DNA of 64,000 nt. Origin: a bacterium. Lineage in GTDB: Bacteria > Patescibacteriota > Minisyncoccia > Phycocordibacterales > UBA2100. Location of the stretch: assembly GCA_009924895.1 (NCBI GenBank), contig RFQR01000003.1, positions 1,066 to 65,065 of the forward strand, given 5' to 3'. Below are positions 8,491-14,588 of the stretch, in pieces; the first letter of the stretch is position 1; the number at the start of each line of letters is the position of its first letter. The notes beneath the pieces are model-generated. The model was not told the DNA's origin, made no database searches, and worked only from the letters and a program-made list of their open reading frames with translations. Made by a program: the position numbers and the translations under genes.

Positions 8491-8561
8491 TGCGGGATGG
8501 GAGAATCGAACTCCCGACTCAACATTGGAAGTGTCGCATTTTACCACTAAACTAATCCCGC
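8491..8561 (-). tRNA. tRNA-Gly (anticodon UCC), no encoded CCA
   Basis: Cloverleaf: acceptor GCGGGAT/ATCCCGC, anticodon arm CGACA-CTTCCAA-TGTTG, T-arm GGGAG-TTCGATT-CTCCC, discriminator A. Confidence 0.85.
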
Positions 8562-9247
8562 GATGGTTTGGCAAGCGCTAAGCCAGATAAAGCCATGAGC
8601 TTACGAGCTAAGAATACACCAAAACGCTTTTCTCCCAAACTTTTTACTGTTACATTCGCAGTCCCATGGGGTAACTTCCCTCTCTTTTTTGCTTTTTTGT
8701 CAGTTCTCTTATCAATCACGGGCGAATAAAACCGTACTCGCGGCACCCCAGTCTCTTTGATCCAAAATGTGTGAGCTGCATCTACATCAGTGTCAGGATA
8801 CAGGTGTAACCTAATCCATATATTGTCGTTTCTAACCCCAACTGCCTCAATAAACCAGCGGATCATGAATGCAACAGTCAAACTATGTGCATTTACAAAA
8901 CGTACAATGTTGTCAGATTTGATTCCTTCGCCAATATACAAACCAAGTCCTAATAGAAACAGGTCTCGTTGCGACAATAACCCTAAATCTGATAGAGCCT
9001 CTATTTTAGCTGATTCCAGCGACTTTTGTTTTTGAAGACTTTTAACAGCAGTTGACGCGGCGCGAGCTTTCCCGATGCGCTCCTTTGTTTCCTTGTTAGG
9101 AACATAAAGCACGCTTGAAGTCCAAATACTTACCGTACTTTTTGAAACCGCAAGTTGCAGCGCTATGTATGAGTATGAATGTCCAGCTTTCCGCAATTCA
9201 ATTGCCGCTAATTTAGATGTTATTTTCGTCACACCTATAGTATACAT
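8552..9247 (-). CDS. HTH + LAGLIDADG-like protein (putative free-standing homing-endonuclease-like), paralog of 13905..14588
   Basis: An N-terminal HTH (LRKAGHSYSYIALQLAVSKSTVSIW), then LLGLGLYIGEGIK (LAGLIDADG-like), then WIKETGVP. Its 3' end overlaps the tRNA-Gly 5' end by ~10 nt. Start chosen at the ATG at 9247 (MYTIG...), which avoids overlap with the protease gene. Confidence 0.45.
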   Translation of the reverse strand: MYTIGVTKITSKLAAIELRKAGHSYSYIALQLAVSKSTVSIWTSSVLYVPNKETKERIGKARAASTAVKSLQKQKSLESAKIEALSDLGLLSQRDLFLLGLGLYIGEGIKSDNIVRFVNAHSLTVAFMIRWFIEAVGVRNDNIWIRLHLYPDTDVDAAHTFWIKETGVPRVRFYSPVIDKRTDKKAKKRGKLPHGTANVTVKSLGEKRFGVFLARKLMALSGLALAKPSRD

Positions 9248-9278
9248 GTAAGAATCAAAGACAAAGGTTTGAATCGTA

Positions 9279-10463
9279 TTGTATGATGCTTGGATGACAT
9301 TATTGCGCCCCCGGCAACACACTCTTTTAATTGCCCTCGTTGCAGTAATGCTTGGATATCCCATGTTGAAAATGGAGCAAATTCATACGCAGGAAACTTT
9401 TGAAATGCAGGGTCAGACTGCGGCTGTGAGTACCCCAGAAAAAGCACTGCCTGAAAAAAGCAACGAGATAAACAAAGAAAGATCGGGGCTTCCGACTTCC
9501 CCGATACCTCCAAAAGCTTTGACAGCCACACCTTCATCTTCAGACATACGAAGAGTAGGGATCACGACTAAACCCAACCAAGCGCAACGACTCATTAATC
9601 CCTACCCCTTCCCTCCTTCTGCACCCGAAATTATAAATGCGCAAGCCCGTACGGCACTCATAAATATTATCTGTGCCGGCGAAAATTCTATTCAGCCTGT
9701 TTCGGGAAGCGGTGTTTTTATCGATCCACGGGGCATTATCCTTACCAACGCTCATGTCGCGCAGTACGTTTTGCTCTCCGAAGACCCCCGTGTAGACCTC
9801 TCATGCTCCATCCGCTCCGGCTCTCCCGCCGAATCTCGATTTCGGGCTCGCGTGTTACACCTTCCGCGTTCATGGGTCGAGGAACACGCTGATGAAATCA
9901 ATAAAAGCAGGATCAAGGGTACCGGAGAACACGACTATGCGCTCCTTTTGATTACCGCCGGTGTCGACTCTCCCCTTCCCAGTACTTTTCCCTTCATACC
10001 TATCGATGCACGTGAGGCAATCGCCTTTACGGATGATACTGTCCTCACCGCAAGTTACCCTGCAGAATTTACAGGAGGACTTATAACACAGCGTGAGTTG
10101 TATGCTGTGAGTGCATGGGCACATATAACTGAATTGCATACCTTCAGGACAGGAACTGTTGACGCTTTTTCCCTGAGCAGTACAGTCGGCAGCCAGAGCG
10201 GTTCCTCTGGTGGCCCCGTTGTTAATGGCTGGCAACGTCTTGTTGGGATTATCACCACAATGAGCGGCGGGACTGCGACTGCAGACCGAAGCCTCCAGGC
10301 AATTAGTCTTGCCAGTATTTCTCGTGATATGCAAACTGATACCGGCTCGACATTAGAGCAATTTCTTACCCAAAATATTGAGGATCTGCTGGAGCGATTT
10401 GAAAAAATACGCAGCGAACTTTTGAATACTCTTGTAGCCCCGCTGTTGAAGCAACCTCGTTAG
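9279..10463 (+). CDS. Membrane-anchored trypsin-like (S1/HtrA-type) serine protease
   Basis: N-terminal TM helix; catalytic His (GSGVFIDPRGIILTNAHV), Asp (HDYALL), and Ser (GSSGGPVV). Confidence 0.7.
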   Translation: MYDAWMTLLRPRQHTLLIALVAVMLGYPMLKMEQIHTQETFEMQGQTAAVSTPEKALPEKSNEINKERSGLPTSPIPPKALTATPSSSDIRRVGITTKPNQAQRLINPYPFPPSAPEIINAQARTALINIICAGENSIQPVSGSGVFIDPRGIILTNAHVAQYVLLSEDPRVDLSCSIRSGSPAESRFRARVLHLPRSWVEEHADEINKSRIKGTGEHDYALLLITAGVDSPLPSTFPFIPIDAREAIAFTDDTVLTASYPAEFTGGLITQRELYAVSAWAHITELHTFRTGTVDAFSLSSTVGSQSGSSGGPVVNGWQRLVGIITTMSGGTATADRSLQAISLASISRDMQTDTGSTLEQFLTQNIEDLLERFEKIRSELLNTLVAPLLKQPR

Positions 10464-10464
10464 C

Positions 10465-10487
10465 TCGTGTCGGGCCGCTGGGAATCG
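10465..10487 (+). repeat. Distal 23-nt direct repeat of the tRNA-Pro 3' end plus 5 nt of trailer
   Basis: tcgtgtcgggccgctgggaatcg is identical to 10633..10655. Confidence 0.8.
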
Positions 10488-10594
10488 GTCAGGTATATTA
10501 ATTCTGTCGTCACAGAATTATTTGCACGACCCTGACTCGGCTGTTTTGCTTATGCGCAAAACATGCCTCCGTCTTTCGATTCCCAACGCAGCGG
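10487..10594 (+). repeat. Copy A of the tRNA-trailer structured repeat family
   Basis: ggtcagg, then hairpin1 aattctgtcgtcacagaatt, then ttgcacgaccctgactcgg, then hairpin2 gttttgcttatgcgcaaaac, then catgcctccgtctttcgattccc. Confidence 0.7.
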
Positions 10595-10637
10595 TGTACT
10601 GACACTACTGCTGCGACCCGCACACACTTCGTTCGTG

Positions 10638-10708
10638 TCGGGCCGCTGGGAATCGAACCCAGTCTACATGGTCCCAAACCATGCGTACTACCGGTATACT
10701 ACGGCCCG
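10638..10708 (-). tRNA. tRNA-Pro (anticodon UGG), no encoded CCA
   Basis: Acceptor CGGGCCG/CGGCCCG, anticodon arm CATGG-TTTGGGA-CCATG, T-arm CTGGG-TTCGATT-CCCAG. Confidence 0.85.
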
Positions 10709-10814
10709 CTCTTTGAAAACAGTCGAATAGTACCACATTGCACGCTGATTGGCTATTTGAAGCTGAAAATACTCGACTTTTTAGTGTTTCGCGGGACTGA
10801 TTTATAAAAGACAT

Positions 10815-13497: not shown

Positions 13498-13546
13498 GAC
13501 TATAGGTCACAGATATTTGCTTACCTCGGCAAAAAGGGTCTTTTGT

Positions 13547-13639
13547 GGTCAGAGATAATTTCTGCTCCGTCGAGCAGAAATTTCCACGACCCTGCCTCCG
13601 CCGTTTTCTCTGCTGAGAAAACATGCGTCCAACTTGCAC
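13547..13639 (+). repeat. Copy B of the tRNA-trailer structured repeat family
   Basis: ggtcag, then hairpin aatttctgctccgtcgagcagaaatt, then ttccacgaccctgcctccg, then hairpin gttttctctgctgagaaaac, then catgcgtccaacttgcac. Confidence 0.7.
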
Positions 13640-13683
13640 AAAAGCAGAAAACCTGGCGTTAGCCAGGCTTTCTGTTTTTAGGT

Positions 13684-13776
13684 GGTCAGGAATAATGCAC
13701 TTGTCGCCACTCATGCATTTTCCCGACCCGGACTCGTCCGTTTTTGCTACTGCAAAAACATGACTCCGTCTTGCAC
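13684..13776 (+). repeat. Copy C of the tRNA-trailer structured repeat family
   Basis: ggtcagg, then aatgca..tgcatt, then ttcccgacccggactcg, then hairpin gtttttgctactgcaaaaac, then catgactccgtcttgcac. Confidence 0.7.
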
Positions 13777-13782
13777 TACGCG

Positions 13783-13815
13783 AAAAGAGACTGGCGCAGG
13801 CCAGTCTCTTTTCGT
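13783..13815. terminator. Hairpin terminator between the repeat array and tRNA-Arg
   Basis: gagactgg-cgcagg-ccagtctc flanked by T-runs (ttttcgtctt). Confidence 0.5.
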
Positions 13816-13820
13816 CTTAG

Positions 13821-13892
13821 TGCACCCGTCAGGACTTGAACCTGAAATAGCGCTTCCGAAGAGCGCCGTGATATCCATTTCACCACGGGTGC
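13821..13892 (-). tRNA. tRNA-Arg (anticodon UCG), no encoded CCA
   Basis: Acceptor GCACCCG/CGGGTGC, D-arm GTGA..TCAC, anticodon arm GCGCT-CTTCGGA-AGCGC, T-arm TCAGG-TTCAAGT-CCTGA. Confidence 0.85.
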
Positions 13893-13904
13893 AGTGTGAG
13901 AACT

Positions 13905-14588
13905 CTATCGTTTTTTTACGAAATGTGCAAAAAGCAACTTCTGAAAAAATTGCATGGTGCGAAGTGTTCTTATTCCTGGAATTTCCAACCTTAAGCAACC
14001 TTTGTAGTTAGGTCTCTTTTTGTATTGCAATCCGGTTGGTTTATAAATCGTTTTCAAGAACTGCCCCAGCGGAACCCCGAGCTCTTTGGACCACCACTCT
14101 TCACACCGCTCGTGCGCGTATGACTTATGAATATACAAGCGGAATCTCATCTCATTTTTGGAAAACTTCAAAAACTTTTCTGCCCAGAGAACGATAACAT
14201 TCATCATTTCGCTATCAGAGTTAACAAACTGGAATGCACTGCTTCTCTTTGCTCCCTCAGCCCAGTACAGAGAAACTCCGGCGGTGAAAAAAGAATCCTC
14301 GGCAAAGTTTGTAAACATATGTTCGCATTCTTTAAACAATATTGCTTCCCTAGCAAGTCGTGCATTTCTGTGAGCGGATGCTGCACGTATTCTACCTTTT
14401 GTTACATTTTTACTAACTCGATTCAGGAGTGACCTCTTCTCGTCTTTTGTTAAAGGAAAATCTTTGAGCCACAGTGACAGTAAACTTTTTGCAACGGGCA
14501 GTATTTGTCGTATCTCACGGTAACTCAAGCCCCTCCTTCTTAATTGCATAGCCTGCTCTCTTTCTGAAACCAGTTTCCTCATGTACAT
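13905..14588 (-). CDS. HTH + LAGLIDADG-like protein, paralog of 8552..9247
   Basis: LRRRGLSYREIRQILPVAKSLLSLW (HTH), AGVSLYWAEGAK (LAGLIDADG-like), WSKELGVP. It ends 12 nt before the tRNA-Arg 5' end. Confidence 0.5.
   Translation of the reverse strand: MYMRKLVSEREQAMQLRRRGLSYREIRQILPVAKSLLSLWLKDFPLTKDEKRSLLNRVSKNVTKGRIRAASAHRNARLAREAILFKECEHMFTNFAEDSFFTAGVSLYWAEGAKRSSAFQFVNSDSEMMNVIVLWAEKFLKFSKNEMRFRLYIHKSYAHERCEEWWSKELGVPLGQFLKTIYKPTGLQYKKRPNYKGCLRLEIPGIRTLRTMQFFQKLLFAHFVKKR

What the first reader, a model, noticed from the sequence alone, without database searches (positions are those of the whole stretch)
8552..14588. Two paralogous HTH + LAGLIDADG-like ORFs, each abutting the 5' end of a tRNA gene
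The ORFs at 8552..9247 and 13905..14588 (both minus) are clearly homologous. Shared blocks are LRKAGHSYSYIALQL / LRRRGLSYREIRQIL, LLGLGLYIGEGIK / AGVSLYWAEGAK, and WIKETGVPRVRF / WSKELGVPLGQF. The central motif resembles a single LAGLIDADG homing-endonuclease motif, and the C-terminal W.KE.GVP block resembles the I-CreI-like fold (inference). The N-terminus is a sigma-70-region-4/resolvase-like HTH.

One copy overlaps the tRNA-Gly(UCC) 5' end by ~10 nt. The other ends 12 nt before tRNA-Arg. Both tRNAs carry the trailer repeats and 3' end duplications described above. A tRNA-associated free-standing endonuclease-like family of this architecture is not one I recognise as described.
Basis: partly seen in the sequence, partly recalled or inferred. 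Interest (0 to 1): 0.75.

Follow-up and report, generated by a model that had tools for sequence, protein, structure and literature searches.

The report
tRNA-anchored HTH–LAGLIDADG endonuclease-like gene family
The two genes belong to a large, unnamed family of homing-endonuclease-like DNA-binding proteins whose genes sit directly on the promoter or 5' edge of one particular tRNA gene in several bacterial phyla, a link I found described nowhere.

Summary
ORF-A (8552..9247, -) and ORF-B (13905..14588, -) are homologous (BLASTP E 8e-15). ORF-A runs 10 nt into tRNA-Gly(UCC). ORF-B stops 12 nt before tRNA-Arg(UCG).

- The most conserved motif, Y-W/I-x-E-G-x-K, aligns with I-DmoI motif 2 (hhalign 87%, E 4e-6). 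This places the ~99%-conserved Glu and Lys on E117 and K120.
- No Pfam or NCBIfam model covers the domain, and every source calls these proteins 'hypothetical'.

The main result is family-wide. Of 109 family ORFs, all 102 that could be judged lie next to a tRNA gene. Ninety-five lie just upstream on the same strand, median 12 nt. Protein subfamilies track tRNA identity across 11 tRNA species and at least four phyla; in actinobacteria the partner is tRNA-Gln(UUG), before glmU.

The ORF 3' ends overlap the tRNA promoters. Some subfamilies are patchy, with precise presence/absence. ORF-B is stably syntenic with the cca gene.

Most likely this is a homing-endonuclease-derived lineage that recognises its cognate tRNA locus. 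Whether it still homes or has been domesticated is unresolved.

The parts
13905..14588 (-). ORF-B, 227 aa (probable true start ATG at 14582, giving 225 aa). It has an HTH, a long helix and a LAGLIDADG-like domain, and belongs to the tRNA-Arg(UCG) subfamily.
13820..13892 (-). tRNA-Arg(UCG). It starts 12 nt after the ORF-B stop codon.
   Evidence: ARAGORN and Rfam, 61 bits. In 59 of 61 loci that could be judged, an ORF-B ortholog lies directly upstream of this tRNA species.
8552..9247 (-). ORF-A, 231 aa (possible GTG start near 9232). It is a paralog of ORF-B and belongs to the tRNA-Gly(UCC) subfamily.
   Evidence: 191 relatives at about 50-58% identity. Orthologs in L051, L056 and L181 also abut tRNA-Gly(UCC).
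8490..8561 (-). tRNA-Gly(UCC). Its first 10 nt are the last 10 nt of ORF-A, and the ORF-A stop codon is U8-A9-G10 of the tRNA.
14247..14279 (-). LAGLIDADG-type motif of ORF-B, GVSLYWAEGAK (residues 104-114). E111 and K114 align with I-DmoI E117 and K120.
   Evidence: hhalign. Across 518 domain instances E is present in 514, G in 518 and K in 514. Roles of E117 and K120 are taken from PMC3384342.
8918..8950 (-). LAGLIDADG-type motif of ORF-A, GLGLYIGEGIK (residues 100-110).
   Evidence: Alignments; sequence.
14457..14570 (-). N-terminal helix-turn-helix of ORF-B (residues about 7-44).
9122..9214 (-). N-terminal helix-turn-helix of ORF-A (residues about 12-42).
   Evidence: Pfam HTH_23, E 5e-4.
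13902..13930 (-). Predicted sigma-70-type promoter of tRNA-Arg lying inside or over the ORF-B 3' end. The -35 is TTGCAC (13930..13925), followed by a 17-nt spacer and a -10 of TAGAGT (13907..13902). The first three bases of the -10 are the ORF-B stop codon, and the -10 ends 9 nt before the tRNA.
   Evidence: Read from the sequence. Promoter-like elements upstream of tRNAs are enriched over shuffles equally in loci with and without an ORF, and the stop codon overlaps the -10 in 26 of 59 ORF-B loci. The simple window scan did not list this site. This is an inference.
14612..16108 (+). Context: the divergently transcribed CCA-adding tRNA nucleotidyltransferase gene. It is a conserved upstream neighbour of ORF-B.
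   Evidence: tblastn finds it divergent and adjacent to the ORF-B ortholog in about 50 of the roughly 60 ORF-B loci. In L074, cca lies directly next to tRNA-Arg(UCG) with no ORF, i.e. an empty site.

Best explanation
ORF-A and ORF-B are two ancient paralogs of a large, so far unnamed family of free-standing proteins. Each has an N-terminal HTH, a long helix that may form a coiled coil, and one LAGLIDADG-type endonuclease domain.

Each subfamily is tied to one tRNA gene species. Its gene sits immediately upstream of that tRNA, with its last codons running through the tRNA's own promoter (-35 and -10) and sometimes into the tRNA itself.

The mechanism I think most likely is as follows.
- The protein dimerises through the LAGLIDADG helix, as single-motif enzymes such as I-CreI do.
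- It recognises DNA of its cognate tRNA locus, meaning the tRNA gene and/or the promoter-tRNA junction. The HTH adds flanking contacts.
- The retained Glu/Lys site allows it to cut, or at least bind in a metal-dependent way, alleles that lack the insert.
- The gene is therefore a homing-endonuclease lineage whose home site is the upstream edge of tRNA promoters.
- In some lineages it has become a fixed, vertically inherited resident under purifying selection. Examples are ORF-B between cca and tRNA-Arg in Paceibacteria, and the copy before tRNA-Gln(UUG)-glmU in Streptomyces. That implies an added host-level role at the tRNA locus.

Shown here:
- homology of the two ORFs;
- the fold class and conservation of the motif;
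- family-wide adjacency to tRNA genes;
- correspondence between protein subfamily and tRNA identity;
- overlap of the ORF 3' ends with tRNA promoter-like sequences;
- patchy occupancy in some subfamilies and stable occupancy in others.

Inferred:
- dimerisation;
- DNA, rather than RNA, as the target;
- cleavage;
- homing.
For: Fold and active site:
- hhalign places the family motif on I-DmoI motif 2.
- E-G-x-K is about 99% conserved in 518 domains, including both halves of the two-domain actinobacterial proteins.
- WhiA, the domesticated non-nuclease relative, has lost these residues (PMC3384342).

tRNA linkage:
- All 102 ORFs that could be judged are next to a tRNA. The median distance from stop codon to tRNA is 12 nt, and 11 tRNA species are involved.
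- The NJ tree groups the proteins strictly by partner tRNA.
- The Met-linked clade stays next to tRNA-Met genes even though the Chloroflexi copies lie downstream of them rather than upstream.

Insertion-like behaviour:
- Within the conserved cluster tRNA-Arg / Gly(GCC) / Pro / Gly(UCC), occupancy is 12 of 44 for Gly(GCC), 3 of 19 for Gly(UCC) and 0 of 32 for Pro.
- Only 1 of 92 metagenomic tRNA-Gly(UCC) loci carries an ORF-A-type gene directly upstream.
- L057 holds a decayed copy.
- L087 has a family ORF between tRNA-Tyr and tRNA-Gly(UCC).
- Two Gly(GCC) clades occur alone or in tandem. In tandem the G1 clade is always the one next to the tRNA, and the boundaries are precise.
- The empty site in L026 keeps the same promoter that forms the last ~45 nt of G1 ORFs.
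- L074 shows cca directly followed by tRNA-Arg with no ORF.

Precedent: the phage T4 endonuclease SegB lies in a tRNA gene cluster and recognises a TψC stem-loop motif in tRNA genes (PMC2330249).
Against: - ORF-B behaves like an ordinary vertically inherited gene. The cca / ORF-B / tRNA-Arg synteny holds in about 50 loci. Pairwise identity matrices of ORF-B and CCA correlate (r 0.53, Mantel p 0.001), and no pair suggests recent transfer.
- Streptomyces copies are 74-89% identical across the genus and always in the same place. Drive cannot maintain a gene where there are no empty sites.
- There are no homologs in 50,697 phage or 72,556 plasmid records.
- No Pfam LAGLIDADG model matches any of 60 diverse members.
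- Foldseek against the PDB gave no LAGLIDADG hit.
- The model has extra helices between strands 3 and 4.
- The other basic residue that the same review names, I-DmoI K43/K130, aligns with Ser/Ala in this family.
- No target site, cleavage or dimer was demonstrated.
Confidence: 0.45

Rival explanations
1. The protein is a domesticated, WhiA-like local transcription factor. It does not cut DNA. It binds at or near the promoter that its own 3' end overlaps and tunes transcription of the single adjacent tRNA gene, and possibly of itself.
For: - The ORF 3' end overlaps the tRNA -35 and -10.
- An HTH is present.
- There is long-term vertical retention with purifying selection in Paceibacteria and Streptomyces.
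- The family is absent from phages and plasmids.
- I-TevI is a precedent for a homing endonuclease that also acts as a repressor (PMC3384342).
Against: - The metal-binding Glu and the neighbouring Lys are about 99% conserved, whereas WhiA lost them.
- A trans-acting factor does not need such strict adjacency, re-established at 11 different tRNAs.
- Occupancy is patchy and all-or-none at the Gly(GCC) and Gly(UCC) sites, and decayed copies exist. These fit a dispensable element better than a dedicated regulator.
- tRNAs without the ORF carry equally good promoters.
Confidence: 0.27
2. The protein acts on RNA. Like a LAGLIDADG maturase, it binds the precursor of the adjacent tRNA, or the mRNA-tRNA co-transcript, and helps or controls its processing.
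For: - LAGLIDADG proteins can evolve RNA-binding maturase activity (PMC3384342).
- The ORF and the tRNA are on the same strand and 0-20 nt apart, so read-through transcripts would join them. In several cases the stop codon lies inside the tRNA.
- The neighbouring gene is the CCA-adding enzyme.
- Each subfamily tracks one tRNA identity.
Against: - The tRNAs have their own promoter-like elements with very short leaders, so co-transcription is not required.
- These tRNAs contain no introns.
- The HTH and the conserved catalytic-type residues point to DNA.
- The Chloroflexi copies lie downstream of their tRNAs.
Confidence: 0.1
3. The ORFs are ordinary HTH regulators or remnants of mobile elements, and their position beside tRNAs is incidental, for example because of genome compaction or because tRNA genes are general integration hot spots.
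For: - Patescibacterial genomes are compact.
- tRNA 3' ends in this window carry integration-like duplications.
- The HTH resembles transposase HTHs.
Against: - All 102 ORFs that could be judged are next to a tRNA, including copies in 8-12 Mb Streptomyces genomes.
- The position is the tRNA 5' side, not the 3' end that integrases use.
- There is no recombinase or DDE domain.
- Subfamilies match tRNA identity.
Confidence: 0.03

Closest known systems
Single-motif (homodimeric) and double-motif LAGLIDADG homing endonucleases (I-CreI, I-CeuI, I-DmoI, intein endonuclease domains)
   Same: - The motif helix ends in an acidic residue followed by Gly, and it aligns with I-DmoI motif 2 with both E117 and K120 conserved.
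- Two-domain fused forms exist, as in monomeric enzymes.
   Different: - The genes are free-standing, not inside an intron or intein.
- They carry an N-terminal HTH and a 48-residue helix.
- The model has extra helices between strands 3 and 4.
- No Pfam LAGLIDADG model detects them.
- The home site is the 5' flank or promoter of tRNA genes.
- Several subfamilies are long-term vertical residents.
WhiA/DUF199 (LAGLIDADG-derived transcription factor with an HTH)
   Different: - WhiA has two LAGLIDADG domains followed by a C-terminal HTH. This family has the HTH first and one domain.
[quoted passage not shown] This family keeps E and K at about 99%.
- WhiA genes are not linked to tRNAs.
Phage T4 SegB (free-standing GIY-YIG homing endonuclease in the tRNA gene cluster)
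   Same: It is a free-standing endonuclease gene embedded among tRNA genes. Its recognition site contains a conserved tRNA TψC stem-loop motif, and it drives inheritance of itself and the flanking tRNA genes (PMC2330249). This is the closest analogy in behaviour.
   Different: - The catalytic fold is unrelated (GIY-YIG).
- It is a phage gene, whereas this family has no phage homologs.
- It shows no one-to-one pairing with a single tRNA and no promoter overlap.
tRNA-targeting integrative elements (tyrosine-recombinase genomic islands)
   Same: They use tRNA genes as landmarks, and the window also shows duplications of tRNA 3' ends.
   Different: Those elements insert at the tRNA 3' end and encode an integrase. 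Here the gene lies at the 5' side, no recombinase domain is present, and there are no flanking att-like repeats around the ORF.

Membership tests
LAGLIDADG homing endonuclease superfamily | [quoted passage not shown] | tested here: met
   [not shown]
LAGLIDADG homing endonuclease superfamily | Motif helix ending in a metal-binding Asp or Glu at the domain interface | tested here: met
   hhalign of the family against I-DmoI gives probability 86.9% and E 4e-6, placing the family Glu on E117 and the Lys on K120. Glu is present in 514 of 518 domains and Lys in 514 of 518.
LAGLIDADG homing endonuclease superfamily | Recognised by curated LAGLIDADG sequence models (Pfam LAGLIDADG_1/2/3/WhiA) | tested here: not met
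   Only HTH families match, both in the two window proteins and in 67 other members. The family profile finds nothing among PDB sequences.
LAGLIDADG homing endonuclease superfamily | Second conserved basic residue in the beta1-beta2 region (I-DmoI K43/K130, as named in PMC3384342) | tested here: not met
   In the hhalign alignment I-DmoI K130 faces Ser or Ala of the family's F-V-N-S-D block.
LAGLIDADG homing endonuclease superfamily | Site-specific double-strand DNA cleavage | not testable with these tools
   This needs purified protein and substrates carrying the tRNA locus.
Homing (mobile) endonuclease genes | Presence/absence polymorphism at one fixed, precise site among related genomes, with decayed copies | tested here: met
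   - Gly(GCC) site: 12 occupied, 32 empty.
- Gly(UCC) site: 3 occupied, 16 empty, plus one decayed copy in L057; also 1 of 92 in an independent metagenome sample.
- Boundaries are precise, and the promoter is shared between the empty (L026) and occupied sites.
Homing (mobile) endonuclease genes | Evidence of horizontal spread, such as phylogeny that conflicts with the host's or presence on mobile vectors | tested here: not met
   ORF-B is syntenic with cca, and its pairwise identities follow those of cca (r 0.53, Mantel p 0.001, no outliers). There are no phage or plasmid homologs. Only the ORF-B subfamily was tested.
WhiA/DUF199 | Two LAGLIDADG domains followed by a C-terminal HTH, with catalytic residues lost | tested here: not met
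   One domain, an N-terminal HTH, and Glu/Lys retained. The WhiA features are taken from PMC3384342.
SegB-type free-standing endonucleases of tRNA clusters | GIY-YIG catalytic domain | tested here: not met
   There is no GIY-YIG hit in Pfam, and the fold is LAGLIDADG-like.
tRNA-targeting integrases / transposases | Tyrosine- or serine-recombinase domain, or a DDE domain | tested here: not met
   Only the HTH part resembles transposase or resolvase HTHs, and no catalytic recombinase domain is present.

The most novel reading that the evidence does not exclude
The family is a domesticated set of nuclease-competent DNA-binding proteins, each dedicated to one tRNA gene and encoded on that gene's promoter. 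Each member would control the expression, copy integrity or recombination of its own tRNA. An example would be tRNA-Gln(UUG), which reads the rare CAA codon in Streptomyces, by analogy with bldA. This would be a layer of gene-by-gene tRNA control that has not been recognised in bacteria.
Probability: 0.25. Interest if true: 0.9.

Novelty: new variant of a known kind. Interest (0 to 1): 0.77.

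Why it matters
If this holds, several things follow.
- A family with more than 4,600 clusters at 50% identity has escaped annotation. It appears in every Streptomyces locus and genome hit sampled here and is common in Patescibacteria.
- It turns out to be a LAGLIDADG-type protein with an intact catalytic signature.
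- It shows a strict one-to-one association between a protein subfamily and the 5' edge of one tRNA gene, across phyla. I found no description of such an association.
- It offers a new natural source of sequence-specific meganuclease scaffolds that carry an extra HTH.
- It is either a new type of home site for selfish endonuclease genes, namely tRNA promoters, or a new kind of tRNA-specific regulator.
- The question is directly testable in a tractable organism, because the gene upstream of tRNA-Gln(UUG)-glmU in Streptomyces can be deleted.

Tried and rejected
- phmmer and profile searches against PDB sequences found nothing useful.
- Pfam, NCBIfam, PADLOC and PHROGs returned only HTH matches. 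A defence-system or phage origin is therefore not supported.
- tblastn against phage and plasmid collections gave no match.
- An exact 39-nt tRNA-Gly(UCC) pattern found nothing in the metagenome collection. The relaxed pattern gave 113 loci used for the occupancy estimate, but no near-identical pair of occupied and empty sites.
- I looked for remote LAGLIDADG relatives through the 1.84-billion-protein profile search. Only the best 150 hits are listed, and all are clear family members, so no bridging sequences were seen.
- The idea that the tRNA depends on read-through from the ORF is not supported. The tRNAs keep promoter-like elements of their own.
- The idea that the trailer repeats belong to the ORF element is rejected. 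The same trailer follows the ORF-less tRNA-Pro and tRNA-Gly(GCC), and it follows tRNAs in other genomes.
- Six literature searches found no description of the family.

Full report
**1. The observation**

The window carries four tRNA genes between 8.4 and 13.9 kb: Gly-UCC, Pro-UGG, Gly-GCC and Arg-UCG.

ORF-A (8552..9247, -) and ORF-B (13905..14588, -) are real open reading frames. They are homologous, with BLASTP E 8e-15 and 24% identity over about 200 residues.
- ORF-A ends with TAG, which is U8-A9-G10 of tRNA-Gly(UCC). The overlap is therefore 10 nt.
- ORF-B ends 12 nt before tRNA-Arg(UCG).
- An HMM of the family finds only these two copies in the 64 kb window.

**2. What the proteins are**

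Database matches:
- Pfam and NCBIfam see only a weak N-terminal HTH.
- Both proteins have hundreds of relatives in Patescibacteria at about 50-58% identity. All are called 'hypothetical'.

Structure. An AlphaFold2 model of ORF-B, built with 35 sequences, has pLDDT 91.8. It shows three parts:
- an HTH at residues 2-42;
- a single long helix at 48-95;
- a C-terminal alpha/beta domain.

Fold comparison:
- Foldseek against the PDB was uninformative.

Sequence comparison:
- I checked the I-DmoI sequence against PDB entry 2vs8.
- A profile-sequence comparison of the family with I-DmoI aligns the family block GLYWAEGAK..FVNSD..W with I-DmoI residues 111-147 (probability 86.9%, E 4e-6).
- This puts the family Glu on E117 and the family Lys on K120.
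- A review of homing endonucleases names both residues as catalytic in I-DmoI. It stresses that WhiA, the domesticated relative, has lost them and does not cut DNA (PMC3384342).

Conservation. In 518 domain instances the Glu is present in 514, the following Gly in 518 and the Lys in 514. This includes both halves of the two-domain actinobacterial proteins.

The LAGLIDADG assignment is therefore supported by fold, by motif position and by residue conservation. Against it:
- no curated LAGLIDADG model detects the family;
- the model has extra helices between strands 3 and 4;
- the second basic residue of I-DmoI (K130) is not matched.

**3. Size and spread of the family**

A profile of the C-terminal domain finds 4,615 cluster representatives (50% identity clusters) at E ≤ 1e-3, and 2,602 at E ≤ 1e-10.

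Members occur in:
- Patescibacteria;
- Actinobacteria, including Streptomyces, with more than 5,600 hits and 74-89% identity among the listed Streptomyces copies;
- Chloroflexota;
- Planctomycetia.

None was found in phage or plasmid collections.

**4. The tRNA link is a property of the family**

I took 80 loci from species-representative genomes and seven more from look-ups of divergent members. I called tRNAs with ARAGORN and family ORFs with an HMM.

Of 109 family ORFs:
- 95 have a tRNA on the same strand just downstream. The median distance from stop codon to tRNA is 12 nt, and 87 lie within -40..+50 nt.
- 4 are the upstream member of a tandem pair that precedes a tRNA.
- 3 lie just downstream of a tRNA.
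- 7 are cut off by contig ends.
- None lacks a tRNA neighbour.

Eleven tRNA species are involved: Arg-UCG, Arg-UCU, Arg-CCU, Arg-GCG, Gly-GCC, Gly-UCC, Gln-UUG, Lys-CUU, Glu-CUC, Thr-CGU and Met.

In Actinobacteria the arrangement is X, then tRNA-Gln(UUG), then glmU and prs.

A neighbour-joining tree groups the proteins strictly by partner tRNA. The Met-linked clade keeps its association even though the Chloroflexi copies lie downstream of tRNA-Met rather than upstream. This argues that each subfamily is specific for a tRNA locus, not merely for a position.

**5. Anatomy of the junction**

The 40-60 nt upstream of the tRNAs carry sigma-70-like -35/-10 pairs well above shuffled controls. This holds equally with and without a family ORF: mean score 6.5 and 6.4 against 5.0 in shuffles, and a score of at least 9 in 22% and 19% against 3%.

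- In ORF-B loci the -35 (TTGAAT/TTGAAC) lies in the codons of the conserved C-terminal helix. The stop codon overlaps the -10 in 26 of 59 cases.
- In the window the layout is TTGCAC, 17 nt, TAGAGT, 9 nt, then the tRNA. The TAG that opens the -10 is the ORF-B stop codon.
- For one Gly(GCC) subfamily, the last ~45 nt of the ORF are the same promoter (TTGACC, 17 nt, TGGTATTAAAT) that stands alone in an empty site, L026.

The ORF body therefore sits immediately upstream of, and reads through, the tRNA's own promoter. When no stop codon intervenes, translation ends at the conserved U8-A9-G10.

The ORFs themselves usually have a TAnnnT hexamer ending 6-9 nt before the start codon (67 of 105), and almost never a Shine-Dalgarno motif (2 of 105). 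This suggests leaderless transcripts from their own promoter. That is an inference, and I have no genome-wide baseline for comparison.

**6. Mobile or resident?**

Both patterns occur.

Patchy subfamilies:
- In the conserved cluster Arg-UCG / Gly-GCC / Pro / Gly-UCC, a family ORF precedes Gly-GCC in 12 of 44 loci, Gly-UCC in 3 of 19 and Pro in 0 of 32.
- In 92 independent metagenomic tRNA-Gly(UCC) loci, only one has an ORF-A-type gene directly upstream.
- L057 keeps a decayed copy.
- L087 has a member between tRNA-Tyr and tRNA-Gly(UCC).
- Two Gly-GCC clades occur alone or in tandem. In tandem the same clade is always the one next to the tRNA, with precise boundaries.

Stable subfamilies:
- ORF-B lies between the divergent cca gene and tRNA-Arg in about 50 loci.
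- Its pairwise identities follow those of cca (r 0.53, Mantel p 0.001), and no pair suggests recent transfer.
- L074 shows the empty arrangement, with cca next to tRNA-Arg.
- The Streptomyces copies are equally stable in position.

A gene that is fixed and still keeps its catalytic-type residues must be under selection for something other than drive, at least in those lineages.

**7. Explanation**

The reading I favour, at about 0.45, is a homing-endonuclease-derived lineage.
- Its dimeric LAGLIDADG domain, together with the HTH, recognises the cognate tRNA locus.
- Its home site is the upstream edge of the tRNA promoter.
- Some subfamilies still behave like dispensable invaders.
- Others are fixed residents with an added host role.

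The main rival, at about 0.27, is a WhiA-like local regulator of the tRNA promoter that no longer cuts DNA. An RNA-level, maturase-like role is less likely (about 0.1). Incidental adjacency is effectively excluded.

The closest analogy in behaviour is T4 SegB, a GIY-YIG endonuclease in a tRNA cluster that recognises a TψC-arm motif (PMC2330249). The closest structural relatives are I-DmoI/I-CreI-type enzymes and WhiA.

**8. Novelty**

The protein fold and the concept of a free-standing homing endonuclease are known. What I could not find described anywhere is:
- the architecture of HTH, long helix and one LAGLIDADG domain;
- the strict pairing of each subfamily with one tRNA gene;
- the overlap with the tRNA promoter;
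- the size and phylogenetic spread of the family.

I rate it a new variant of a known kind, with high interest, because the association is very strong and the function is experimentally accessible.

Noticed in passing
window 8322-8492(-), 10480-10636(-), 13540-13684(-), 13680-13822(-), 12781-12949(+); also L049 4776-4880 and 5037-5149, L056, L053, L033 6208-6368, L021 4815-4946, L030, L027, L009: All four tRNAs are followed by a homologous trailer of about 135-170 nt. In order, it contains:
- a terminator-like hairpin;
- a segment complementary to that tRNA's own T-arm and 3' acceptor strand;
- a conserved core, CATGTTTT..AAAACGG..GAGTCAGGGTCGTGCAAAT..CCTGACCGATTC;
- for Gly-UCC and Pro, a direct copy of the tRNA 3' end (23 nt exact and 28 nt at 93%).

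An nhmmer profile finds the element after tRNAs in other Paceibacteria, and no Rfam family matches it. It could be a new structured tRNA-trailer RNA or a miniature element that targets tRNA 3' ends. It is independent of the ORFs.
   Followed up: partly
window 14589-14611 and upstream regions of family ORFs in L001-L087: Family ORFs usually have a TAnnnT (often TGnTAnnnT) hexamer ending 6-9 nt before the start codon (67 of 105). They almost never have a Shine-Dalgarno motif (2 of 105). This suggests leaderless mRNAs. I made no genome-wide baseline, so this may be general to these genomes.
   Followed up: partly
window 13820-13892 and tRNA-Arg(UCG) genes in L001-L060: tRNA-Arg(UCG) genes come in two D-arm versions, GTAGCTCAAYGGATAGAGC and GTGGTGAAATGGATATCAC. 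The two are scattered across the ORF-B tree rather than forming clades.
   Followed up: no
window 8490-8561, 10637-10708, 12712-12783, 13820-13892: None of the four tRNA genes encodes the 3' CCA, and the gene next to ORF-B is the CCA-adding enzyme (14612-16108, +). The pairing of cca with tRNA-Arg(UCG) is conserved across Paceibacteria and is also seen in L074 (Nealsonbacteria).
   Followed up: partly
P0361-P0370, P0381; L081 3001-4275, L082 3001-4599: Some actinobacterial members are fusions of two complete units, each an HTH plus a LAGLIDADG-like domain (396-576 aa). Both units keep the E-G-x-K motif. This parallels the evolution of monomeric double-motif LAGLIDADG enzymes from homodimers.
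   Followed up: partly
window 10815-11195(-): The gene upstream of tRNA-Pro(UGG) is a 126-aa ORF that, from my reading of its sequence alone, looks like a YraN/UPF0102-type small endonuclease. It is not a member of the family, and I did not check the resemblance with any tool.
   Followed up: no
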